A DNA stretch of 64,000 nucleotides from NCBI GenBank assembly GCA_002305355.1, contig DBQS01000016.1, positions 36,279 to 100,278 of the forward strand, written 5' to 3'. The DNA comes from Patescibacteria group bacterium UBA1388. Lineage in GTDB: Bacteria > Patescibacteriota > Microgenomatia > UBA1400 > PJMF01. Both the position numbers and the translations under genes were made by a program. Shown one piece after another: positions 3,119 to 45,788 of the stretch. Every line of letters begins with the position of its first letter. Position 1 is the first letter of the stretch. The notes beneath the pieces were generated by a model, which had not been told where the DNA came from, made no database searches, and saw only the letters and a program-made list of their open reading frames with translations.

Positions 3119-5339
3119 TTGGGTCTTTCTTAACACTTTTTTCTTCGTGACGTTTGCGTAATTTTTTGAGTCCTTCCTCAGAATACACCGGCACTGTAAA
3201 ACTGAAAGTGGAACCTTTGCCATGACCGTCCGATTCAACCCAAATTTTCCCTCCGTGCAACTCAACAATTGATTTGCTGATGTACAAACCTAATCCAGTG
3301 CCTTGAGCTGAATCTTTGTTCGAAATGTAAGATTCTTTGAGCATACCAAATTTTTTAAACAACTTTGAAATTTGATCCCTCGCCAAACCTACTCCGGTAT
3401 CAATGACGCTGATCGTCACAAATTGTTTGGAAGCAGTTAGACATACTCTGACCTTACCTTGAGGGGGTGTGAATTTGAGTGCATTACCTATTAAATTAGT
3501 CAATACTTCAGCAATTTTATCTCGGTCTGCCATCACATCTGGTAAATCAGACATTTTCTGATGTTTAGCGGTCGGACACTCAATAGTGACCTGCACGTGA
3601 TGCGCTTCAGATCGAGGTTGAAATTCACCGACAATTTGTGACACTAATTCACCAATTTTTAGTTGGGTAATATTCAAAATAATTCTTCCTGATTCAATTC
3701 GCGAAATGTTCAACAAATCATTGATCAATTGTGACATTCTGTTGGCAGAGGCATATGCCCTATCTAAATAAAACTTTTGCTTGCGTTGCAACCTACCACC
3801 CTTGCCCGCCAAAGTCATCCAAATATAATTTTTGATTGAAACCATGGGAGTCCGCAACTCGTGAGAAGCAATTGATACAAATTCATCTTTAAGCTTGTCT
3901 AACTCCTGCAATTTTTTATTGGCAGCCAGTAATTGACTAGTAGCTCGTTCAATTTCATCCTCAAGTGTTATATTGAACCTGCGAATTTCTTCATAAGCTT
4001 TAGCATTTTCAATAGCAACTGCTGCTTGAGAGGCAATGATGTTAACTAACTTGGAGTCTCGGCTTGAAAAAGGATCGCCAGACAATTTCCCTCCCAAAGT
4101 AATTAGGCCTATTGTTTGACCCTCCTTAATCATCTCGATCACTAATTCAAACTCATATTTTTTAAAAATGTTCTGTAATTTGTTGTTGCTCAATGATTCG
4201 TAAATCATTAATTCATTGGGATGTAAAAGTTCTCCAATCTCTTTTTCATCAAGAACAGGTGTTTCGTCATACCCTTCACTAACAACCTGATATATCCCAT
4301 TTTCTTCAATTAAAATAATCATCCCTCTGTGAATTTTCATATTTTGTAACATACGTTGCAACAACTTCCGACATAAATCTTCCAGCAAGAGAGTGGATGC
4401 CATAATTAAAGTTAACTGGTGAAGCAATTCTTCGAAATCATAATAATCCTGATAAAAAATTTGATCCGTTGTTTTCGTAAGGAATTTTTTGAGTGGTTGC
4501 AGCGTAAATCCCACAGCAATAGACAAAAACACGAATATACTTGCTAAACGCAAATCTAACAAACTACCGAAAATCAAATTTGAAAACAAAAATAGAAAAA
4601 TACTTTGGAAAGTTGCAAAAATAATCAAGACTAAAAAATAGGAGACAGTTCTCGCTAGGACTGGCCTGATGTCTAAAAGTTGGTAACGACCAATGGCTGC
4701 GGCAACGGCCCCTCCTCCCAACAATAAAAATAATGGTGACCAATCAACAAACCAGGTAATATGAAAAATGAGCGGCAAAATTACCGTTGATACCAGCATT
4801 AAAATAAAGCTAATTGAAATACCGACTGCAATTAATTGCAGTTGTTGTCGCAAATAACCTTTGCTTAAACGGTATTTCCTGAACAGACTTGCTACTCCTC
4901 CCAAGATTGCACCTATCTGCAGCATCATAAATGACAACACTGCGGAACCAGCTTCGATTTGTAAAGTACCTGCTTCAATCGTAACTCTAGAAAAAATTAA
5001 TCCCGAATAAGCAAGAACAAAATTGAGCAAAACCCACAAAAAAAGAACGATTTGGATTTTCAAATTAAAAAATATTTTTTGTGTGGGAAATACTTTCACA
5101 AAACAAAAAAAGAAGGGACCAGCTGGAATGGCTGAAAATAGTATCATTTTAGAAAAGAAATCAAGGCCCATTTGAGAATTGGTATGTAAAGCTAAATAAT
5201 TAAAAATTGGGTAAAGACTAATGCAAAATAAAAGAAAAGCAAAATAGATATGAGTACCACTTTTCCTATTTTTGAGAATAATAAACAAGCCCAGTACAAA
5301 ACTGATTAAAGCAGTCAAGATGGCGATAAATAATTCCAT
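3099..5339 (-). CDS. Sensor histidine kinase: polytopic N-terminal membrane domain, GAF-like domain, HisKA, HATPase_c
   Basis: About 290 aa of repeated hydrophobic helices are followed by a GAF-like segment ending AAVAIENAKAYEE. The H-box is IASHELRTPM. The ATP-lid is GTGLGLYISKSIVELHGG. Confidence 0.85.
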   Translation of the reverse strand: MELFIAILTALISFVLGLFIILKNRKSGTHIYFAFLLFCISLYPIFNYLALHTNSQMGLDFFSKMILFSAIPAGPFFFCFVKVFPTQKIFFNLKIQIVLFLWVLLNFVLAYSGLIFSRVTIEAGTLQIEAGSAVLSFMMLQIGAILGGVASLFRKYRLSKGYLRQQLQLIAVGISISFILMLVSTVILPLIFHITWFVDWSPLFLLLGGGAVAAAIGRYQLLDIRPVLARTVSYFLVLIIFATFQSIFLFLFSNLIFGSLLDLRLASIFVFLSIAVGFTLQPLKKFLTKTTDQIFYQDYYDFEELLHQLTLIMASTLLLEDLCRKLLQRMLQNMKIHRGMIILIEENGIYQVVSEGYDETPVLDEKEIGELLHPNELMIYESLSNNKLQNIFKKYEFELVIEMIKEGQTIGLITLGGKLSGDPFSSRDSKLVNIIASQAAVAIENAKAYEEIRRFNITLEDEIERATSQLLAANKKLQELDKLKDEFVSIASHELRTPMVSIKNYIWMTLAGKGGRLQRKQKFYLDRAYASANRMSQLINDLLNISRIESGRIILNITQLKIGELVSQIVGEFQPRSEAHHVQVTIECPTAKHQKMSDLPDVMADRDKIAEVLTNLIGNALKFTPPQGKVRVCLTASKQFVTISVIDTGVGLARDQISKLFKKFGMLKESYISNKDSAQGTGLGLYISKSIVELHGGKIWVESDGHGKGSTFSFTVPVYSEEGLKKLRKRHEEKSVKKDPNDEQEK

Positions 5340-38782: not shown

Positions 38783-39082
38783 GTGCCAATCCCAAAATAC
38801 CTGCGTTTCCATCAACTGATGATGGAACAAAACGCCACACTTTTCGCCAAATTCAAACCCATTCATGATGGATTTGCAGCTTCACCCGATGAGTGGGCGG
38901 TACAGTTTCATAGTGTGGGAAGAGATGTCACAGACGTGTGCCGAGATTGGGAAAGAAGATTATGCTATGGATCTGAAAAAGGGCAATACGCTAAATTTTC
39001 CTATAAATTATCTGATAAATTTTGGGGAGAAATTAAAAAAGATTTTCCGTTGATTGAACAAGTGGGGTTAATCAAATCTTGA
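38783..39082 (+). CDS. Hypothetical protein (99 aa, GTG start in the ORF track)
   Basis: An intact ORF 9 nt after greA; no family recognised. Confidence 0.4.
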   Translation: MPIPKYLRFHQLMMEQNATLFAKFKPIHDGFAASPDEWAVQFHSVGRDVTDVCRDWERRLCYGSEKGQYAKFSYKLSDKFWGEIKKDFPLIEQVGLIKS

Positions 39083-39240
39083 CCACATCGTGACCAACAG
39101 CAACTCACTAGTAATCAAATAAATACCAAAAAAACTAAACAGAAAGTCAATTCTGAAACTGAACCATTGTAGCTGGCATTGTATAACTTTACCCGATTAT
39201 TCGCGGAAAACAATGGTGCGTATATGACTCGTTTATATAA

Positions 39241-39272
39241 AAAAATAACCCCCCGCTTTCTTGCGGGGGGTT
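39241..39272 (-). terminator. GC-only hairpin terminator downstream of ORF 39334..39897
   Basis: AACCCCCCGC-tttctt-GCGGGGGGTT is a 10 bp stem. On the minus transcript it is followed by ATTTTTTATATA. Confidence 0.6.
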
Positions 39273-39333
39273 TCAAGTTTAGAGCCGAGTCTGTCCTCTC
39301 AGCCCTCTTACTTGATACTCACACCATTATTTC

Positions 39334-39897
39334 TTAATTTGAAAAACCATGCATCCGCAGCATCTCTGCCGGCATTTCACTTCTTAAATCTTCATCATTT
39401 GCACCAGCTATGTCTTTGTGAAAACCACAACCGTACCATTTGCCACCATATTTTCCTGGACCAAAATGCAAAGCTGCTATGTCAATACCATTTTCCTCTG
39501 CCCAGGTCACCATTTCATCATGCTGCGCTTGCATGATAGCAACCCGATCCTCGAAAGACATATCTTTTAATTCTTCCCTCATATCTTGATAAATCTGCTG
39601 ATTTTCCTGATGCTTAGCCAAAATTAATTGTTTTTGATTTTCCGTGATTAGACCAGCGACAACTGCTTCTTGTAATTCATCTTCATAGCGTGCCTGTATT
39701 TGTTGCTGCCTCTCCTCACGCAATTCATCAAATACTACTTGTACCTCTTGTTCGTCTTTGCCAAATTTGTCTGCCAATCTCCTGACTAAAGTATCTTCAT
39801 CAGCTCCAAAACCAAAAGCATCTGCCCGATCAGTTGCTAAAATCATAATTCCAACTAAAAAAATAAATGTAGGAATAAGTAAAATGCGTTTTTTCAT
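39334..39897 (-). CDS. Hypothetical secreted, helix-rich acidic protein
   Basis: Signal peptide MKKRILLIPTFIFLVGIMILATDRADA|FG. The mature part is rich in E/Q/K. It lies directly downstream of the 39975-41679 two-component system, behind its own promoter box. Confidence 0.5.
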   Translation of the reverse strand: MKKRILLIPTFIFLVGIMILATDRADAFGFGADEDTLVRRLADKFGKDEQEVQVVFDELREERQQQIQARYEDELQEAVVAGLITENQKQLILAKHQENQQIYQDMREELKDMSFEDRVAIMQAQHDEMVTWAEENGIDIAALHFGPGKYGGKWYGCGFHKDIAGANDEDLRSEMPAEMLRMHGFSN

Positions 39898-39923
39898 ATA
39901 GAGCAGTAATTGATAATTATTTA

Positions 39924-39957
39924 AATATAACGTACCAAATTGAGAAAATCTTGAAAA
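39924..39957 (-). promoter_or_regulatory. Direct-repeat response-regulator box + -10: TTTTCAA-GATT-TTCTCAA-N10-TATATT
   Basis: The plus strand shows TTGAGAA (39940-39946) and TTGAAAA (39951-39957), 11 bp apart. AATATA (39924-39929) is TATATT on the minus strand. Confidence 0.5.
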
Positions 39958-39974
39958 CTAATTACACTCATCTC

Positions 39975-40997
39975 TCAACCTTTTGATGGTAACCAGACAG
40001 AAAAAGTGCTGCCTTTGCGTACTGCTGACGTGACCATAATTTGACCGCCATGTTGGTCAACGATTTTTTGAGCCACCGATAAACCAAGTCCATACCCATG
40101 GTGTTGATAATTGCCACGAGTTTGATCTGCCCGATAAAACCTTTCAAAAATATGAGGGAGATCTCGGTGGGAGATTCCGCTTCCAAAATCTGTCACTTCT
40201 AACAAAACTTGGTTTTTTCGTTTATTGAGCTTAACTTTGATCACCGACCTTTTCGGGCTATACTTTAATGCATTATCAAGCAAAATTAGCACTAAATCTA
40301 AAAGTGCTCCTTCATCACCCCATACCCAATATTTAGTTTTCCCCTTTTCCAGTTGAATCGTGATCTCTTTTTTTTGGGCAGTGGCTTCCAAATATTCCAT
40401 ACCCCTAGTCACAATCTTTGTTAGGTTAAGCGGTTTTTTAATTAGCTGTTGATCTGTGACTTTTGCCAACCTTAATAAACTCTGACTGAGTGACTCCAGG
40501 CTTGTGACATCCTCTAAATTTTCCTTCAAAATTTTTTTCGTTTTTTTATCAAGTGCCCGATCCATTAAATTGACTTCAAGCGATGTTTTTAAGGCTGTGA
40601 TTGGAGTTTTCAATTCATGAGCTGCGTCGCCAATAAAGCGTTTTTGTTCCTCATGGATTTCTTCAATTGGCTTGAGTGTTTTGCCACTCAGAAAATACCC
40701 CGCTGCAGCAAAAAAAACAATAATAATTAAATTTATAATGATAAGCTGACCAGCAATTTGACTTTGAGCATTTCTTAAATCCTGAGGTGTAATTCTCCTC
40801 CCAAATCCTGGCCTACTTTGCAATCCAACTCCAGGCCATTCTTGCTGCAAGCGTTGTTCTATTCTGATATATTCTTGCTCTAAAACCGATGAAACGCGCA
40901 CATAAATCACGCCACTTAAAGAAGAAGTTATCAAAACGATGATCAGTAAGTACCACAGCGTTAATCTAATGCGAGCTGAAGCGAACATATCCGCCAT
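39975..40997 (-). CDS. Membrane sensor histidine kinase (2 TM, HisKA, HATPase_c)
   Basis: H-box GDAAHELKTPITAL; N-box LDNALKYS; G-boxes DFGSGI and GYGLGLSVAQKIVDQHGG. The gap to the upstream response regulator is 1 nt. Confidence 0.85.
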   Translation of the reverse strand: MADMFASARIRLTLWYLLIIVLITSSLSGVIYVRVSSVLEQEYIRIEQRLQQEWPGVGLQSRPGFGRRITPQDLRNAQSQIAGQLIIINLIIIVFFAAAGYFLSGKTLKPIEEIHEEQKRFIGDAAHELKTPITALKTSLEVNLMDRALDKKTKKILKENLEDVTSLESLSQSLLRLAKVTDQQLIKKPLNLTKIVTRGMEYLEATAQKKEITIQLEKGKTKYWVWGDEGALLDLVLILLDNALKYSPKRSVIKVKLNKRKNQVLLEVTDFGSGISHRDLPHIFERFYRADQTRGNYQHHGYGLGLSVAQKIVDQHGGQIMVTSAVRKGSTFSVWLPSKG

Positions 40998-40998
40998 A

Positions 40999-41679
40999 TT
41001 AATCAGTCACTCCAAACTTGTAACCAAATCCACGAACCGTGTGAATTAAGGGCTTTTCCTTCGGAAAAGCCCGATCTATTTTATTTCTCAAATAACCAAT
41101 GTAAACCTGAGCGGTGTTAGGTAAAACATCACTATCATAACTCCATACCTGCTCTGTGAGCTGATCCTTGGAAAGCACTTGTCCTTCATGCCTCATTAAA
41201 AATTCCAACAGCGCAAATTCTTTACGAGATAAAGAGATCGATTTGCCTGTTCTAGTTACCGCAAAACTTGTAGGATTAAGTTGCAGTGAACCAGACTGTA
41301 AAACTTCATTGACTTGTTTCTGTGGCCTTCTCGAAAGCGCCCGCACTCTGGCTAAGAGCTCGGTAAAAGCAAAAGGTTTGCCCAAATAATCGTCCGCCCC
41401 AGCATCCAAACCTTCTACCCGATCCTCGAGTTGAGTCTTGGCGGTCAACATTAAAATTGGCGTGTGATTACCAGCTGTTCTTAACTGCCGACAGATCTCC
41501 ATACCTGTCATGCTAGGTAACATTCTGTCCAAAATAATCACGTCATACTTTTCACCATCCGCCAAATCAAAACCTGTCGCTCCATCATAGGCCACATCCA
41601 CTATATAAGATTTAACTTCCAAACCTTTTTTGATGTAATTCGCAATTCGGTGTTCATCTTCAATTACCAAAATTTTCAT
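40999..41679 (-). CDS. OmpR/PhoB-family response regulator
   Basis: MKILVIEDE ... DVIILDRMLPSMTG ... LTAK ... KPF, with a winged helix LSRKEFALLEFL ... VYIGYLRNKI ... VRGFGYKF. Confidence 0.9.
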   Translation of the reverse strand: MKILVIEDEHRIANYIKKGLEVKSYIVDVAYDGATGFDLADGEKYDVIILDRMLPSMTGMEICRQLRTAGNHTPILMLTAKTQLEDRVEGLDAGADDYLGKPFAFTELLARVRALSRRPQKQVNEVLQSGSLQLNPTSFAVTRTGKSISLSRKEFALLEFLMRHEGQVLSKDQLTEQVWSYDSDVLPNTAQVYIGYLRNKIDRAFPKEKPLIHTVRGFGYKFGVTD

Positions 41680-41688
41680 TTCTTAGGT

Positions 41689-41721
41689 ATTATAAACTCT
41701 TTCTTGAGAATAAGTTGAAAA
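41689..41721 (-). promoter_or_regulatory. Direct-repeat response-regulator box + -10: TTTTCAA-CTTA-TTCTCAA-N9-TATAAT, with the -10 box 9 nt from the ATG
   Basis: The plus strand shows TTGAGAA (41704-41710) and TTGAAAA (41715-41721), 11 bp apart. ATTATA (41689-41694) is TATAAT on the minus strand. Confidence 0.55.
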
Positions 41722-41907
41722 TTTTCACATATAAATAGTTTTTATTACCGAGGAATATCCTAGTACTATTATTCTACATTTCATCATGAAATCTTTTGAA
41801 AGATATCAAACTAACTTTTTAAATGTGAATTTTTAATTGTTTAAAGCAGTAATTTTTTTCAGCGTGAATCGGAATATAATAATCCAGTAGTTCAGTATTA
41901 TTATATT

Positions 41908-42546
41908 GTGGCCACCACTCAAACAGACCTCCAATTTAAATTTGTTGAGCAATATATCAAACCTGTCACTGATGATACTCGCCTCAGACAAGCATTTCTT
42001 ACAACGCCGCGTACCTTGTTTGTGCCAAAACAATATCGCTCTCAAGCTTACCAGGACCATGCTATCCCACTTGATCACAACCAATCCATCAGTCAACCCA
42101 GTTTAGTTGCGTTGATGATCGACCTTTGTCAGTTAAAATCTGAACACAAAGTGTTGGAAATTGGCACGGGTTCTGGTTATCAAACCGCTCTCCTTTCCAA
42201 GTTAGTGCGAGCAGTTTATTCAATCGAAATTCATCCAAAACTAGCAGCATCCGCCCAAAGAAAATTGCATAGTTTAAAAATTTTGAACGCACATATTATC
42301 GTCGGTAATGGTCAATTTGGGTATTCTGTCCAAGCTCCATACGACGCCATCATTGTGACTGCGAGTGGCAAAAAATTGCCACCTGCATTAGTTGCACAAT
42401 TAGCACCAAACGGCTTGATTGTTTTTCCTCTTAAACATGATGATGGCAAAGAATATTTGTACCGTGGAATTAAGAAAAATGGCTTAGAGTTGCAATTGAT
42501 TGAACCTGTTAGATTCGTGCCGTTAATTAATTCTAAAAGAGACTGA
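41908..42546 (+). CDS. pcm: Protein-L-isoaspartate O-methyltransferase
   Basis: ISQPSLVALMIDL ... KVLEIGTGSGYQTALLS ... YDAIIVTAS. The ORF track uses a GTG start. Confidence 0.85.
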   Translation: MATTQTDLQFKFVEQYIKPVTDDTRLRQAFLTTPRTLFVPKQYRSQAYQDHAIPLDHNQSISQPSLVALMIDLCQLKSEHKVLEIGTGSGYQTALLSKLVRAVYSIEIHPKLAASAQRKLHSLKILNAHIIVGNGQFGYSVQAPYDAIIVTASGKKLPPALVAQLAPNGLIVFPLKHDDGKEYLYRGIKKNGLELQLIEPVRFVPLINSKRD

Positions 42547-42654
42547 CATAGGTTGACGGCGTGATAATTAATCGACAGTTTCTAACCTAAGTAGAACAGG
42601 ATACTCAAAACTTAGCTAAAAAATGGCAAAACAAAGCAAATACTGAGAATTAAC

Positions 42655-43599
42655 TTATATCCTAATCAATTGATATTCCAGCGAACCCAAACCAATTCGA
42701 TTCGCATATGCAAAAATACCGTAATCGTTGAACGGTCTTTTACCTTCTCTTTTTTCCAACAGATCAAAACAGGCTTTGTCAATTGCCACAGGATCTGTTG
42801 AAGCCAACAAACCTAGATCATCATAAATAAGTGGCATTGGTTCACCATCACAATCACAATTAGCAGTAATATTGATCGCAAAATTTAAATAAATATATTT
42901 TTGGCCATGCACTGCTGCTAAAGCATATTCTGCCACTCTCTCAGCAAATGTTTGACCATAATAAACATAATCATCATTCCAAATTTGGGAGCTACCAGTA
43001 GGCACTTGACTCGCTTTTGCCCAGTCAATTCTTTCTGTGACAGGGATTTCTACCTTGGCATGCGCCTCAGTTTTTCCACGACCAGACGCAAAACCAATTC
43101 CCAGTTGTTTGATTGCCCCGCCAAACCCAGTCATGATGTGCCCCTTAAAGTGACTCATCGCCAACACCTGATTTTGATCGGATAAACCTGCGGCAATCTT
43201 GCAGGTCTTGAAATGCTTGCCATTTCTTATCGATACCTCCACGTGGTCAAAACCGTCTTCGCCGTCAGCTATCTTGGCAGGAATATCTGTAAAGCCATGA
43301 TCTTTTAACACTTGCAAGTGTTTGTCTTCGGTTGAACGAATTCCAGCAGCGGTATTAGTTTCAATGTAGTACGGCTTAATTTCTTGATCTAATAAGTGGT
43401 CGATCAGATCTGAGTATGTCTGTGGTCTGGTAAATGTAGTATTTCCTGGTTCTCCTGAATGAATTTTGATGGGTAAATTTTTTTGTAAACTGAGTTGTTC
43501 ACTCTCGACTAGTTTTTTGAAAATTTGCAGCGTACCGGCTGCTAAAGCATCTGGATTAGTGAGCTTCTTGGCTGAAAGAAAGTAAACATTAGTCATCAT
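42655..43599 (-). CDS. DUF362 / COG2768-type uncharacterised protein
   Basis: MMTNVYFLS ... PIKIHSGEPGN ... ETNTA ... IADG ... MSHFKGHIMTGFGGAIKQLGIGFASGRGKTEAH matches my memory of this family. The start is moved to ATG 43599. Confidence 0.6.
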   Translation of the reverse strand: MMTNVYFLSAKKLTNPDALAAGTLQIFKKLVESEQLSLQKNLPIKIHSGEPGNTTFTRPQTYSDLIDHLLDQEIKPYYIETNTAAGIRSTEDKHLQVLKDHGFTDIPAKIADGEDGFDHVEVSIRNGKHFKTCKIAAGLSDQNQVLAMSHFKGHIMTGFGGAIKQLGIGFASGRGKTEAHAKVEIPVTERIDWAKASQVPTGSSQIWNDDYVYYGQTFAERVAEYALAAVHGQKYIYLNFAINITANCDCDGEPMPLIYDDLGLLASTDPVAIDKACFDLLEKREGKRPFNDYGIFAYANRIGLGSLEYQLIRI

Positions 43600-43650
43600 A
43601 GTGGGCAGTCTAACATACTTTATTGACTCAATAAATATAAAATTCAGCAC

Positions 43651-43673
43651 CCCCCCCGCCTTTGGCGGGGGGG
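43651..43673 (-). terminator. GC-only hairpin downstream of ORF 43734..44153 (weak U-tract)
   Basis: CCCCCCCGCC-ttt-GGCGGGGGGG is a 10 bp stem. On the minus transcript the T-rich run starts only about 8 nt later. Confidence 0.35.
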
Positions 43674-43733
43674 TAGGAATCAGTCTTCAGATATGGTCCC
43701 AATAAGGGTTACACTGTTAAGTAAATAGTATTC

Positions 43734-44153
43734 TTATTGTTGCCATCTACCCATACCACTACCCTGATTTTTACCTTGACCAGTGCCATTTTGTCCACTG
43801 TTCTGATCACCAGCTTGACCGGCACCGTTTCTCAAGCCCAAACCGAGCTCAGTGCGAATTTGCTTCGCTCCTTCAACATCACCGGCTGCTGCTAAACGAT
43901 GCGCTTCAGCAAAGCGAGGAAAGTTTTCCTCATTGACCATCTGCGTCACTCGACCCTTACCAGCCATCAATTCTGACCAAGCTTGATAGTCGTTGTTTTC
44001 AAAAGCTGCCAGCATGGCTGCATGTCTTTCTTCAGTATGATTGGGACCCTGTACACTGGGATCTCCCTGATAAGCTGCTGCTGCTCCAGAACCCATAGTC
44101 AAGCCTCCAAGCATTACGGCGGCGGCTATTAAACCGATGTATTGTTTCTTCAT
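43734..44153 (-). CDS. Hypothetical small secreted protein with a Gly/Gln/Asn-rich tail
   Basis: Signal peptide MKKQYIGLIAAAVMLGGLTMGSGAAAA. The RBS is GAAAGGAGGAGCAA. No family recognised. Confidence 0.5.
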   Translation of the reverse strand: MKKQYIGLIAAAVMLGGLTMGSGAAAAYQGDPSVQGPNHTEERHAAMLAAFENNDYQAWSELMAGKGRVTQMVNEENFPRFAEAHRLAAAGDVEGAKQIRTELGLGLRNGAGQAGDQNSGQNGTGQGKNQGSGMGRWQQ

Positions 44154-44193
44154 TTGCTCCTCCTTTCAAAAGGATAAATTGATAACGAGGCAG

Positions 44194-44227
44194 ATCATAA
44201 CGTTAGCTGTTGAAAAGTTAATGAAGA
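44194..44227 (-). promoter_or_regulatory. Related box + -10: TCTTCAT-TAAC-TTTTCAA-N10-TATGAT
   Basis: The plus strand shows TTGAAAA (44210-44216) and ATGAAGA (44221-44227), 11 bp apart. ATCATA is at 44194-44199. It shares the ACGTTAT junction with the box at 39924-39957. Confidence 0.4.
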
Positions 44228-44476
44228 TTTGTTGAGTGAACGATGAGAAATCTGCAATCCTTAACTTAGCTTGATCATTGCTTGACAAAATATTGAACAT
44301 GCATCATCTTTATTCAATCCAACACCGAGCTCAAATATATCTGTCATCGGATGAAAACTATAATTATAGGAAAATTTGACATTATCGTTTAGTGCGCAAT
44401 TTGTGAGCAGGCTAATTGATTCGCTTCCTTGAGATTTTCAGTACAAAATTTATTTTTAACCACCCGCGTTAGATCG

Positions 44477-45274
44477 TCACTCAACCATGCTTTCAAATTT
44501 TTTATTGAAAGTTGTCAATATTTGCGTGAATGTTACTTCAAATTCTTCAGCAGTTAATGAACTTGAAAAATGATGCCCATCTCTTTGTCCATCAGAAAAA
44601 CTCAAATTATCCATCAGATTATTTGGTCCACGGAAAATATCCACGTCAAATGTGATTTCATATCCATGCTCCCAATCTTCACGATCTGTCCTAATTGAAA
44701 CTGAATTATCTGGATTATCTTCTGGAATTAGATCAATTTTCATTCTCGCTTGGGCAGTTTCTGCCACGTTGATTGGCTGTCTATCATTTTTGATTTCAAT
44801 GGGCATTACATATTTTTTAGGTCTAACTAAAATTCTGATCATCCGATATTTACTGCTACCCAAAGTAATATTTTCCGCATAATAAGCACTAATCATATCC
44901 CCAAGTTCTGCGTGTTTCATTTCAAGCTTTTTATTTTTGGTCAAAGGCACTAAATTTTCGGTAAGAGACCTACATACTCCAGCAATCGTCTCAACCCGTC
45001 TTAACACGAATTCGTAGTTCTTAGAATTCAACCGAGCTGGATCTCGTGCAATTTGATAAGAATATTCTGCAATTGAAGACAATGTCAGCATCAATGCATC
45101 CCATACTGTGTTAGCGGCGAGCTTATCTTTTTCAGCAGAATTAAGACCAATGTCTGGAAATAATAAAACTGCATTGTCTTCTTCGCCTGTGTTGCAATAA
45201 CGTTTGATATTTCTCATTACTTTTTCCAATTCTGGAATGTTTTTGGCTATTTCACTGTCGTTTTCTAACATCAC
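44477..45274 (-). CDS. Hypothetical cytoplasmic protein (265 aa)
   Basis: Intact ORF; no family recognised. Confidence 0.4.
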   Translation of the reverse strand: MMLENDSEIAKNIPELEKVMRNIKRYCNTGEEDNAVLLFPDIGLNSAEKDKLAANTVWDALMLTLSSIAEYSYQIARDPARLNSKNYEFVLRRVETIAGVCRSLTENLVPLTKNKKLEMKHAELGDMISAYYAENITLGSSKYRMIRILVRPKKYVMPIEIKNDRQPINVAETAQARMKIDLIPEDNPDNSVSIRTDREDWEHGYEITFDVDIFRGPNNLMDNLSFSDGQRDGHHFSSSLTAEEFEVTFTQILTTFNKKFESMVE

Positions 45275-45404
45275 TTTTATCCGATCTATATATACAACTG
45301 GTGTTAATACTGAAATTAGTTTATCACGACTAATGCAACAACCATCAACAGCAATATGTCATACTGTTAGACACCAGCATCATGAATGAGCGTACTGTAA
45401 AAGA

Positions 45405-45788
45405 CTAATGATGGTGCTCTTCTTCAGCGGCCATAGCTTCATCGCGAGTGGCATGAATCGTGCCAGCGGGATGATTTGGCGGAGAATAAAGCGTGTACAG
45501 CTTCAAGTCATTGCTGCCAGTATTAGTTAGATTGTGCTCACTCCCCGCTGGCACAACTACCGCTGATCCATCTTTGATAGCAAACGTTTCACCATCAATC
45601 AACACTTCTCCCTCACCTTCATCAACTCTAAAAAATTGATCAACATGGTCGTGGACTTCTTTACCAATGTCTTCTCCTGGCTTTAAACTCATCAACACCA
45701 GTTGAGTGTGCTCACCGGTAAAAATCACTTCGCGAAAATTAAAATTTTCTTTAGTCAATTTTTCAATATCATCTACAAAACCTTTCAT
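45405..45788 (-). CDS. Cupin-domain protein with a His-rich C-terminus
   Basis: The two cupin motifs are GEDIGKEVHDHVDQFFRV and VVVPAGSEHNLTNTG. The protein ends EEEHHH. The RBS is GAAAGGAGGATAGG. Confidence 0.8.
   Translation of the reverse strand: MKGFVDDIEKLTKENFNFREVIFTGEHTQLVLMSLKPGEDIGKEVHDHVDQFFRVDEGEGEVLIDGETFAIKDGSAVVVPAGSEHNLTNTGSNDLKLYTLYSPPNHPAGTIHATRDEAMAAEEEHHH

What the first reader, a model, noticed from the sequence alone, without database searches (positions are those of the whole stretch)
39924..44227. Shared 11 bp-phased direct-repeat box at three promoters: predicted regulon of the 39975-41679 two-component system
On the minus strand, three upstream regions share one architecture: a heptamer, 4 nt, a heptamer, 9-10 nt, then a -10 box.

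- TTTTCAA-CTTA-TTCTCAA-N9-TATAAT, before the OmpR-type regulator itself (41689-41721)
- TTTTCAA-GATT-TTCTCAA-N10-TATATT, before the secreted protein gene 39334-39897 (39924-39957)
- The more degenerate TCTTCAT-TAAC-TTTTCAA-N10-TATGAT, before the small secreted protein gene 43734-44153 (44194-44227)

The last two also share the ACGTTAT junction.

Direct repeats with 11 bp phasing that replace the -35 element are the classic PhoB/OmpR class II activator layout. The sequence therefore predicts autoregulation plus control of two exported helix-rich proteins of unknown function.
Basis: partly seen in the sequence, partly recalled or inferred. Interest (0 to 1): 0.6.

Follow-up and report, generated by a model that had tools for sequence, protein, structure and literature searches.

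The report
Response-regulator boxes at three promoters
Three promoters around a two-component sensor-regulator gene pair in an uncultivated (Patescibacteria-type) bacterium carry the same pair of 7-base direct repeats in place of a -35 element, and related genomes keep the repeats, so they are very probably the regulator's binding sites; the mechanism is ordinary, but it links two large families of unknown secreted proteins to a signalling system.

Summary
TTYTCAA-N4-TTYTCAA occurs exactly twice in 64 kb (0.01 expected), both times on the minus strand, 9-10 nt upstream of a TATNNT box. One copy precedes the OmpR-type regulator gene and the other precedes the 187-aa secreted-protein gene.

A weight matrix built only from sites in other genomes ranks these two sites first and second among 128,000 window positions. 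The box sits at the same place upstream of regulator orthologs (60-67% identity) in six other contigs, and upstream of the 187-aa homolog in two diverged loci.

The third, degenerate site is really four half-sites in strict 11-bp phase (44210-44249). That array is unique in the window. Homologs of the 139-aa gene in two other genomes also carry a box-N10-TATNNT promoter.

The best reading is PhoB-like class II activation: positive autoregulation of a leaderless regulator-kinase operon plus induction of two exported proteins.

The signal is unknown. Hints point to envelope or metal stress. The regulator and kinase score highest against the heavy-metal and RppAB families, but below their cut-offs. 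The 187-aa family has ZraP-like features without detectable homology. The 139-aa family has invariant His/Met/His and lies near ECF sigma or copper genes elsewhere.

This is a new member of a known kind, of moderate interest.

The parts
40999..41679 (-). Response regulator gene (226 aa), OmpR/PhoB type
   Evidence: Pfam Response_reg 1.1e-29 and Trans_reg_C 1.6e-26. The closest solved structure is T. maritima DrrD, 1kgs. The best NCBIfam scores are the heavy-metal RR subfamily at 232.7 (cut-off 279.2) and RppA at 230.4 (cut-off 250), both below cut-off.
39975..40997 (-). Sensor histidine kinase gene (340 aa): two membrane helices, a short variable outer loop, no HAMP domain
   Evidence: Pfam HisKA and HATPase_c. 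The ortholog alignment shows an invariant N-terminal MF..AR.KLT.WY motif and a loop with no conserved His, Met or Cys.
41704..41721 (-). Box 1: TTTTCAA-CTTA-TTCTCAA, the predicted regulator dimer site at the regulator-kinase promoter
   Evidence: Exact pattern match. Top score, 22.0 bits, with a matrix built from other genomes. Conserved upstream of six orthologs.
41689..41694 (-). -10 hexamer TATAAT of the regulator promoter, 9 nt after box 1 and 9 nt before the ATG (leaderless or near-leaderless mRNA)
   Evidence: Sequence. Orthologs have the same layout, with 6-11 nt between the -10 hexamer and the ATG. No -35 hexamer was found.
39940..39957 (-). Box 2: TTTTCAA-GATT-TTCTCAA, in the 77-nt gap between the kinase stop and the 187-aa gene
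   Evidence: Exact pattern match. Second-best score, 20.4 bits. Conserved in L001 and L003.
39924..39929 (-). -10 hexamer TATATT of the 187-aa gene promoter, 10 nt after box 2
   Evidence: Sequence. L001 has N10-TATATT and L003 has N10-TATGCT.
39334..39897 (-). Gene for an exported 187-aa helical protein, member of a large uncharacterised family
   Evidence: Signal peptide and helices. 2954 representative relatives. Conserved G-K-I-T-E-x-Q-K motif and a Gly/Met/His-rich tail. No Pfam or NCBIfam family.
39247..39272 (-). Intrinsic terminator after the 187-aa gene
   Evidence: 10-pair stem with 8 G-C pairs, followed by a T run.
44210..44249 (-). Box array 3: four half-sites in 11-bp phase (TTCTCAT, CACTCAA, TCTTCAT, TTTTCAA).
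   Evidence: Four-half-site score 20.3 against 6.9 for the next best place in the window.
44194..44199 (-). -10 hexamer TATGAT of the 139-aa gene promoter, 10 nt after the array
   Evidence: Sequence. A weak TTAACT lies at -35 distance.
43734..44153 (-). Gene for an exported 139-aa protein, member of a Patescibacteria-wide family with invariant H44, M47 and H85
43651..43673 (-). G+C-rich hairpin (CCCCCCCGCC-AAA-GGCGGGGGGG) after the 139-aa gene, a probable terminator
   Evidence: Read from the sequence. The consensus scan did not list it because the T run is offset.
44282..44299 (-). Possible extra low-affinity pair TGTTCAA-TATT-TTGTCAA, not in 11-bp phase with the array
   Evidence: A 2-mismatch match only, with a low matrix score. 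Its status is open.

Best explanation
The 18-bp boxes (consensus TTCTCAR-N4-TTCTCAR) are the DNA sites of the adjacent OmpR/PhoB-type response regulator (40999-41679).

Proposed mechanism:
1. The membrane kinase (39975-40997) phosphorylates the regulator.
2. The regulator binds head-to-tail as a dimer to the two half-sites. These occupy the place of the missing -35 element, 9-10 bp upstream of the -10 hexamer.
3. The bound dimer recruits RNA polymerase, as PhoB does at pho boxes (class II activation).

Predicted consequences:
- Positive autoregulation of a leaderless regulator-kinase operon.
- Induction of the 187-aa exported protein from its own promoter just after the kinase gene. Read-through from the operon is also possible, because no terminator lies between them.
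- Induction of the 139-aa exported protein, probably through two adjacent dimers on four weaker half-sites.

What is shown: the motif, its spacing, its conservation, and the absence of a -35 element at sites 1 and 2. What is inferred: which protein binds, the direction of regulation, and the signal.

The most likely physiological role is an extracytoplasmic stress response, to envelope or metal stress, in which the 187-aa protein could act like CpxP or ZraP.
For: Statistics in the window:
- Exact pattern: 2 matches against 0.01 expected.
- A matrix built only from other genomes ranks the two window sites first and second of 128,000 positions.
- Only 2 look-alikes with a -10 hexamer occur in 1.33 Mb of unrelated DNA.

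Conservation upstream of regulator orthologs, each followed by a -10 hexamer and then 6-11 nt to the ATG:
- L001: TTCTCAA-CTAA-TTCTCAA-N9-TATAAT
- L003: TTCTCAA-GTTA-ATCTCAA-N9-TAAAAT
- L084: CTCTCAG-CAAA-TCTTCAG-N9-TATAAT
- L085: CTCTCAG-GATA-ATCTCAG-N8-TATAAT
- L086: TTCTCAA-GTTG-TTCTCAA-N9-TAATAT
- L087: TTTTCAG-CAAA-TTTTAAG-N8-TATAAT

Conservation upstream of 187-aa homologs: L001 (N10-TATATT) and L003 (N10-TATGCT). In the leave-one-locus-out scan the boxes take the top ranks of the window and of every one of these loci: the regulator and 187-aa boxes rank 1-2 in the window, L001 and L003, and the regulator box ranks 1 in L084-L087.

The 139-aa gene: the four-half-site array is unique in the window. 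Homologs carry TACTCAG-CTTA-TTCTCAA-N10-TATAAT in L166 and TTTTCAG-ATTT-TTTCCAA-N10-TATTAT in L172.

Promoter and protein features: no -35 hexamer at sites 1 and 2; the regulator has REC and winged-helix domains.

Literature:
- Pho boxes are two 7-bp direct repeats with a 4-bp spacer that substitute for the -35 element and act through sigma-70 (PMC4563254, PMC4971064).
- Tandem PhoP dimers on one to three boxes displace the -35/sigma region 4 contact (PMC11825685).
Against: - There is no experimental binding or expression data.
- Only 64 kb of the genome is visible, so other regulators and the full regulon are unknown.
- Site 3's proximal pair alone is within chance, and in this lineage it is conserved only in the near-identical genome L002.
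- Evidence for boxes upstream of 139-aa homologs is marginal in L172 (13.1 against 12.4 for the best non-site).
- Most 139-aa homologs have a different upstream motif.
- The more distant regulator ortholog L004 has only a poor box (rank 38).
- The distant 187-aa homologs in L176 and L178 have no box or a degenerate one.
Confidence: 0.8

Rival explanations
1. The boxes are real and bound by the adjacent regulator, but it represses transcription by occluding the promoter instead of activating it.
For: The box overlaps the core promoter region. Some OmpR-family regulators repress or activate depending on site position (MtrA, cited in PMC7380067; PhoP repression complex, PMC11825685).
Against: The promoters at sites 1 and 2 have no -35 element and would be weak without an activator. 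The position and orientation of the box are fixed at 8-10 bp from the -10 hexamer in all 14 cases, the geometry of pho-box activation (PMC4971064).
Confidence: 0.1
2. The boxes are sites of another transcription factor encoded elsewhere in the genome, and their position next to the two-component genes is incidental.
For: Only 64 kb of the genome can be seen. L166 has a box upstream of a 139-aa homolog with no two-component genes within 6 kb.
Against: The box travels with the regulator gene itself in seven diverged genomes, always directly upstream of its start codon. A 7-4-7 direct repeat is the format bound by OmpR/PhoB-type winged-helix dimers (PMC4563254).
Confidence: 0.07
3. Only the regulator operon and the 187-aa gene are regulated. 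The array upstream of the 139-aa gene is a chance cluster of T-rich heptamers at a constitutive promoter.
For: The proximal pair has 2 mismatches and such matches are at chance level. A weak -35-like TTAACT with a 16-nt spacer exists. Most homologs of this gene use a different upstream motif.
Against: Four half-sites in exact 11-bp register score 20.3 against 6.9 for the next best place in 128,000 positions. The N10-TATNNT spacing equals that of the other target promoters. Boxes occur upstream of homologs in L166 and L172.
Confidence: 0.25
4. The repeats are chance products of AT-rich intergenic sequence, or belong to an RNA element, and have no regulatory role.
For: The genome has about 39% GC, and T-rich heptamers are common when mismatches are allowed.
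Against: The boxes are conserved across loci with 33-52% GC, rank first in the leave-one-out scans, and have a very low background rate. No Rfam family matches at the sites.
Confidence: 0.03

Closest known systems
PhoB-PhoR and the pho box (E. coli); PHO boxes of actinobacterial PhoP
   Same: [quoted passage not shown]
- Autoregulated regulator-kinase operon.
- Arrays of two or more boxes at some promoters (PMC4563254, PMC4971064, PMC11825685).
- The half-site core T-x-T-C-A resembles CTGTCAT. That consensus is recalled from memory.
   Different: - The regulator is not a PhoB ortholog: TIGR02154 scores 197.5 against a cut-off of 296.2.
- The kinase has no PAS domain.
- No phosphate-uptake genes are nearby.
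- The targets are two secreted proteins of unknown function.
Heavy-metal two-component systems (CusRS, CopRS, RppAB/NrsRS), in particular CopRS of Corynebacterium glutamicum
   Same: - The heavy-metal and RppAB (RppA/RppB) families give the highest NCBIfam scores for the regulator; for the kinase RppB is first and the heavy-metal sensor family fifth.
- C. glutamicum CopR binds a direct repeat in 11-bp phase, TGAAGATTTgaTGAAGATTT (PMC3140484). Its reverse complement AAATCTTCA occurs literally in window array 3 and in L084.
- These systems have small regulons that include their own operon.
   Different: - All scores are below the family cut-offs.
- The kinase's outer loop is short and has no conserved His, Met or Cys.
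- Proteobacterial members bind inverted repeats, ATKACA-N4-TGTMAT (PMC7380067).
- No efflux pump or multicopper oxidase lies in the locus.
CpxAR-CpxP and ZraSR-ZraP envelope stress systems of E. coli
   Same: - A two-component system controls a small exported helical protein encoded next to it.
- The 187-aa family has an I-T-E-x-Q-K motif like LTXXQ and a Gly/Met/His-rich C-terminal tail like that of ZraP.
- One family member is named a Spy/CpxP family chaperone by JGI.
   Different: - No detectable homology: Pfam finds nothing; hhalign gives 3.5% probability against ZraP and 2.1% against CpxP; the structure search is uninformative.
- ZraR is a sigma-54 activator, not an OmpR-type regulator.
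- The CpxR site format (recalled from memory as GTAAA-N5-GTAAA) differs.

Membership tests
OmpR/PhoB family response regulators | N-terminal receiver domain plus C-terminal winged-helix Trans_reg_C domain | tested here: met
   PF00072 at 1.1e-29 and PF00486 at 1.6e-26, both above their gathering scores. Full-length matches to DrrD, PrrA, PhoP, RegX3 and MtrA structures.
Pho-box-type class II promoter | Two 7-bp direct repeats with a 4-bp spacer (11-bp phase) | tested here: met
   Present at three window promoters and at 11 sites in other genomes.
Pho-box-type class II promoter | The box replaces the -35 element, about 10 bp upstream of the -10 hexamer | tested here: met
   The spacing is 8-10 nt in all cases. 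No -35 hexamer at sites 1 and 2, and only a weak one at site 3.
Pho-box-type class II promoter | Activation through contact of the bound dimer with sigma region 4 | not testable with these tools
   Needs in vitro transcription or structural work.
PhoB orthologs (TIGR02154) | Score above the curated equivalog cut-off | tested here: not met
   197.5 against 296.2.
Heavy-metal response regulators and sensors (TIGR01387, TIGR01386) | Score above the curated subfamily cut-offs | tested here: not met
   Regulator 232.7 against 279.2; kinase 151 against 292.55.
RppA/RppB (NF041734, NF041735) | Score above the curated equivalog cut-offs | tested here: not met
   Regulator 230.4 against 250; kinase 182.3 against 400.
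CpxP/Spy/ZraP periplasmic proteins (for the 187-aa protein) | Sequence or profile similarity to family members | tested here: not met
   No Pfam hit even at E = 10. No PDB sequence hit with the family profile. hhalign probability is 3.5% against ZraP and 2.1% against CpxP.
CpxP/Spy/ZraP periplasmic proteins (for the 187-aa protein) | Same fold (bent helical hairpin dimer) | tested here: inconclusive
Autoregulated two-component operon | The regulator's own site lies at its own promoter | tested here: met
   The box is directly upstream of the regulator gene in the window and in six orthologous loci. Regulation itself was not tested.

The most novel reading that the evidence does not exclude
The system would be a Patescibacteria-specific extracytoplasmic stress response built from parts with no recognisable homologs.

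- A kinase without a sensory domain would be controlled by the 187-aa exported protein, a functional analog of CpxP or ZraP with a metal-binding Gly/Met/His tail.
- The 139-aa His/Met/His protein would be a stress effector or metal-binding protein. In different lineages it has been placed under this two-component system, under an ECF sigma/anti-sigma pair, or inside copper-resistance clusters.
Probability: 0.3. Interest if true: 0.6.

Novelty: new member of a known kind. Interest (0 to 1): 0.4.

Why it matters
Gene regulation in Patescibacteria (candidate phyla radiation) is almost unstudied, because most members cannot be grown. A full-text search for a two-component binding motif or regulon listed no paper that mentions this group.

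This finding offers a well-supported cis-element with a defined half-site consensus, a fixed promoter geometry and a cognate regulator. It can be tested with purified protein alone.

It also gives a first functional handle on two large families of secreted proteins that no database names: a stress-inducible extracytoplasmic role, possibly metal-related. These families have about 2,950 and more than 380 representative sequences.

The mechanism itself is textbook.

Tried and rejected
- **ECF-sigma promoter reading of the shared ACGTTAT (a CGT -10 motif).** Rejected. Site 2 has no AAC -35 motif. In site 3 the AAC-to-CGT distance is 14 nt, not the 16-17 nt I recall from memory for ECF promoters (sequence).
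- **M. tuberculosis MprA box.** I recalled it as TCTCAGGG repeats and considered it as the closest known site. The original paper is not held. The C. glutamicum MprA motif is different, TKTTAAGAAM. The lead is left unverified.
- **Family assignment of the two secreted proteins.**
  - Pfam and NCBIfam: nothing.
  - PDB sequence search with the 187-aa family profile: nothing.
  - hhalign against E. coli ZraP and CpxP: nothing.
  - The two proteins are not related to each other.
- **Rfam scan of 39000-45500.** No family at the sites.
- **Species-representative genomes.** These gave only distant regulator relatives (56% identity or less). Their upstream regions lack the box or carry different repeats.
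- **Other high-scoring window hits** (55655, 5944, 54970, 22589 and others). They are not followed by a -10 hexamer at the 8-10 nt spacing of the boxes and were set aside as chance.

Full report
**What is in the sequence**

Reading the minus strand of 39200-44400 confirms the three strings at the stated coordinates.

- Site 1 is TTTTCAA-CTTA-TTCTCAA (41704-41721), followed by 9 nt, TATAAT (41689-41694), 9 nt, and the ATG of a 226-aa gene (40999-41679).
- Site 2 is TTTTCAA-GATT-TTCTCAA (39940-39957), followed by 10 nt and TATATT (39924-39929). The ATG of a 187-aa gene (39334-39897) lies 26 nt further on. This site sits in the 77-nt gap after the stop codon of a 340-aa gene (39975-40997).
- Site 3 is TCTTCAT-TAAC-TTTTCAA (44210-44227), followed by 10 nt, TATGAT (44194-44199), and a leader with AGGAGG before a 139-aa gene (43734-44153).

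Gene identities:

- The 226-aa product has receiver and Trans_reg_C domains.
- The 340-aa product has HisKA and HATPase_c domains.
- Both small proteins begin with a signal-peptide-like hydrophobic stretch and match no Pfam or NCBIfam family.
- Between the regulator gene and the 139-aa gene lie a PCMT methyltransferase gene on the other strand and a DUF362 gene.

**Is it more than chance?**

The exact pattern TTYTCAA-N4-TTYTCAA occurs twice in the window, against 0.01 expected from dinucleotide-preserving shuffles. With two mismatches allowed the count is unremarkable: 15 against 10.5. Site 3 taken as a single pair therefore proves nothing, and the pattern itself was chosen after looking at the data.

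I therefore built a weight matrix from 11 sites found only in other genomes and scanned the window with it.

- Sites 1 and 2 come first and second of 128,000 positions (22.0 and 20.4 bits). The next score is 13.9.
- The other high scorers are not followed by a -10 hexamer at the 8-10 nt spacing of the boxes.

Site 3 turned out to be larger than reported. The TCA cores at 44246, 44235, 44224 and 44213 are exactly 11 bp apart, giving TTCTCAT-CGTT-CACTCAA-CAAA-TCTTCAT-TAAC-TTTTCAA (44210-44249). Summing half-site scores over four phased positions gives 20.3 here and 6.9 at the next best place in the window.

A further pair, TGTTCAA-TATT-TTGTCAA (44282-44299), lies upstream but out of phase and scores poorly. 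I leave it open.

**Conservation**

The 187-aa protein had few close relatives in the word-indexed search. Their contigs were informative.

- L001 (67% identity) keeps the order regulator, kinase, secreted protein.
- L003 (44% identity, 52% GC) has the two-component genes 3 kb upstream.
- L002 is a near-identical genome with broken reading frames.

A scan of metagenome contigs with the regulator protein added four orthologs at 60-64% identity, L084 to L087.

Directly upstream of the regulator gene these loci carry the following:

| Locus | Box, spacing and -10 hexamer |
|---|---|
| L001 | TTCTCAA-CTAA-TTCTCAA-N9-TATAAT |
| L003 | TTCTCAA-GTTA-ATCTCAA-N9-TAAAAT |
| L084 | CTCTCAG-CAAA-TCTTCAG-N9-TATAAT |
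| L085 | CTCTCAG-GATA-ATCTCAG-N8-TATAAT |
| L086 | TTCTCAA-GTTG-TTCTCAA-N9-TAATAT |
| L087 | TTTTCAG-CAAA-TTTTAAG-N8-TATAAT |

Upstream of the 187-aa homologs:

- L001 has CTTTCAA-TGTT-TTCTCAA-N10-TATATT.
- L003 has TTCTCAG-GGAT-TTCTCAA-N10-TATGCT.
- L003 has a third box, TTTTCAA-GCTG-CTCTCAG-N10-TAGAAT, before a methyltransferase gene.

In a leave-one-locus-out test these boxes take the top ranks of the window and of each of these loci. The half-site counts give TTCTCAR, with T4 and A6 invariant and C5 in 20 of 22. Regulator promoters use 8-9 nt to the -10 hexamer. All seven target promoters use 10 nt.

The box fades with distance.

- The 56%-identical regulator in L004 has only a poor version (rank 38).
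- A 36%-identical homolog of the 187-aa protein (L178) has a degenerate TATTAAG-CGAT-TCTTCAG-N10-TAAAGT.
- L176 has none within the 85 nt available.

**The 139-aa gene**

This protein belongs to a family of more than 380 clusters. All are unnamed and lie in Patescibacteria lineages such as WWE3 and Moranbacteria.

Two homologs carry a box with the target-type spacing:

- L166 has TACTCAG-CTTA-TTCTCAA-N10-TATAAT.
- L172 has TTTTCAG-ATTT-TTTCCAA-N10-TATTAT.

They rank second and first in their loci, the latter only marginally.

Most other homologs have a different conserved upstream element, TTGAAAGAAAA, about 13 nt, then CTTTCTTGTARTA. They are followed by an ECF sigma factor gene and a probable anti-sigma gene in L164, L165, L167, L168 and L169, but not in L170/L171. 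One homolog lies inside a copper cluster with an ArsR-YHS regulator, an HMA P-type ATPase, a DsbD-cupredoxin protein and an HMA chaperone (L173). Another lies next to a CsoR-type repressor and an MFP/ABC exporter (L172).

Membership of the 139-aa gene in this regulon is therefore likely but less certain than for the other two units. I put it at roughly 0.7.

**Mechanism**

A sigma-70 consensus scan finds no -35 hexamer paired with the TATAAT and TATATT boxes, and only a 4-of-6 TTAACT at site 3. The proximal half-site ends 8-10 bp before the -10 hexamer, so the dimer site covers the -35 position.

This is the geometry described for pho boxes: two 7-bp direct repeats with a 4-bp spacer that substitute for the -35 element, with PhoB acting through sigma-70 (PMC4563254, PMC4971064). 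Cryo-EM structures of PhoP activation complexes show one to three tandem dimers on adjacent boxes displacing the -35/sigma region 4 contact (PMC11825685). That matches the four half-sites at site 3.

I therefore favour the following chain of events:

1. The kinase phosphorylates the regulator.
2. The regulator binds head-to-tail to the two half-sites.
3. It recruits RNA polymerase.
4. The operon is positively autoregulated and both secreted proteins are induced.

No terminator separates the kinase gene from the 187-aa gene. A strong terminator follows the 187-aa gene (39247-39272), so read-through transcription is possible as well. Binding, direction of regulation and signal are inferences.

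**What does the system respond to?**

The regulator and kinase score best against the heavy-metal subfamily and RppA/RppB models, but below every curated cut-off. The closest solved structure is DrrD of Thermotoga, a regulator of unknown role.

The kinase has two membrane helices, no HAMP domain and a 35-55-residue outer loop that is not conserved and has no conserved His, Met or Cys. Its N-terminal MF..AR.KLT.WY segment is invariant. This argues against direct metal binding in the loop and for sensing through the membrane or a partner protein. In L004 and L087 the orthologous pair is followed by MacAB-type exporter genes.

The 187-aa family is large: 2954 representatives at E <= 0.001. Named members come from Roizman-, Levy-, Gottesman- and Moranbacteria. 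The family shares three features:

- a signal peptide;
- a G-K-I-T-E-x-Q-K-x-L-I motif reminiscent of LTXXQ;
- a Gly/Met/His-rich tail resembling the end of E. coli ZraP.

One member is labelled a Spy/CpxP family chaperone by JGI. Homology could not be shown: hhalign gives 3.5% probability against ZraP and 2.1% against CpxP, the PDB profile search is empty, and the structure model is poor.

The 139-aa family has invariant H44, M47 and H85 in a confidently predicted small helical core with no structural neighbour.

Together these hints fit an extracytoplasmic stress response, to envelope or metal stress. They do not decide between the two.

**Comparison with known systems**

The system works like PhoB at pho boxes, but the regulator is not a PhoB ortholog (197.5 against 296.2).

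It resembles CopRS of Corynebacterium glutamicum in two ways. Both use a direct repeat in 11-bp phase. The CopR repeat TGAAGATTT, read on the other strand as AAATCTTCA, occurs literally in array 3 and in L084 (PMC3140484). Proteobacterial heavy-metal regulators instead use inverted repeats (PMC7380067).

It resembles Cpx and Zra in coupling a two-component system to an adjacent small exported helical protein.

A full-text search listed no paper that mentions Patescibacteria together with a two-component regulon or binding motif. No Rfam family matches the sites.

**Verdict**

The mechanism is a textbook one, so this is a new member of a known kind. The added value is a testable regulon in a poorly understood group of bacteria and a first functional clue for two large unnamed protein families.

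Noticed in passing
window 41677-41694; L001 6258-6275; L003, L084-L087 upstream of the regulator gene: The -10 hexamer of the regulator promoter lies only 6-11 nt before the ATG in the window and in all six orthologs, and there is no Shine-Dalgarno sequence. The regulator-kinase mRNA should therefore be leaderless or nearly so. The 139-aa gene has a normal AGGAGG.
   Followed up: partly
L164 5900-6000, L167 2930-3030, L168 4900-5000, L170 4900-5000: Most homologs of the 139-aa gene share a different upstream element: TTGAAAGAAAA, about 13 nt, then CTTTCTTGTARTA. This contains the inverted repeat GAAAGA/TCTTTC. In L164, L165, L167, L168 and L169 the gene is followed by an ECF sigma factor gene and a probable anti-sigma gene; L170/L171 share the upstream element but lack the sigma pair. 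The same effector gene seems to be wired to different regulators in different lineages.
   Followed up: partly
L173 110-4625; L172 1296-4662: One 139-aa homolog sits at the end of a copper-type cluster: an ArsR-YHS regulator, an HMA P-type ATPase, a DsbD_2-cupredoxin protein and an HMA chaperone. Another lies between an MFP/ABC exporter and a CsoR-family metal repressor. The family has invariant H44, M47 and H85.
   Followed up: partly
window 39334-39897 (protein residues 146-187): The 187-aa family ends in a Gly/Met/His-rich tail and has an I-T-E-x-Q-K motif. Both recall E. coli ZraP and the LTXXQ proteins, yet profile comparison finds no homology. With about 2,950 representative sequences the family is large, and it matched no Pfam or NCBIfam model here.
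   Followed up: yes
window 39975-40997: The kinase has no HAMP domain and a short, variable outer loop. Its first membrane helix carries an invariant MF..AR.KLT.WY motif across orthologs. In L004 and L087 the orthologous gene pair is followed by MacAB-type exporter genes.
   Followed up: partly
L037 and L045, upstream of position 5001: Regulator relatives in Chloroflexia (45-47% identity) have their own 11-bp-phased direct repeats just upstream of a -10 hexamer: TTTTCCAATC twice in L037, TTCCAA-N5-TTCCAA in L045. In L037 the ATG follows the hexamer closely, the same promoter design with a different half-site; in L045 it lies about 25 nt downstream.
   Followed up: no
L002 6028-8372: In the near-identical genome GCA_040767465.1 the regulator, kinase and 187-aa genes are each broken into fragments. 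These are either assembly frameshifts or decay of the whole module.
   Followed up: no
window 43597-43673: The mechanical ORF for the DUF362 gene starts at GTG 43650, inside the G+C-rich hairpin that follows the 139-aa gene. The start called in the relative L002 corresponds to ATG 43599.
   Followed up: partly
window 44282-44299: A further pair, TGTTCAA-TATT-TTGTCAA, lies 33 bp upstream of the four-half-site array, out of 11-bp phase and with a G at positions never seen as G in the other sites. It may be a weak auxiliary site or nothing.
   Followed up: partly
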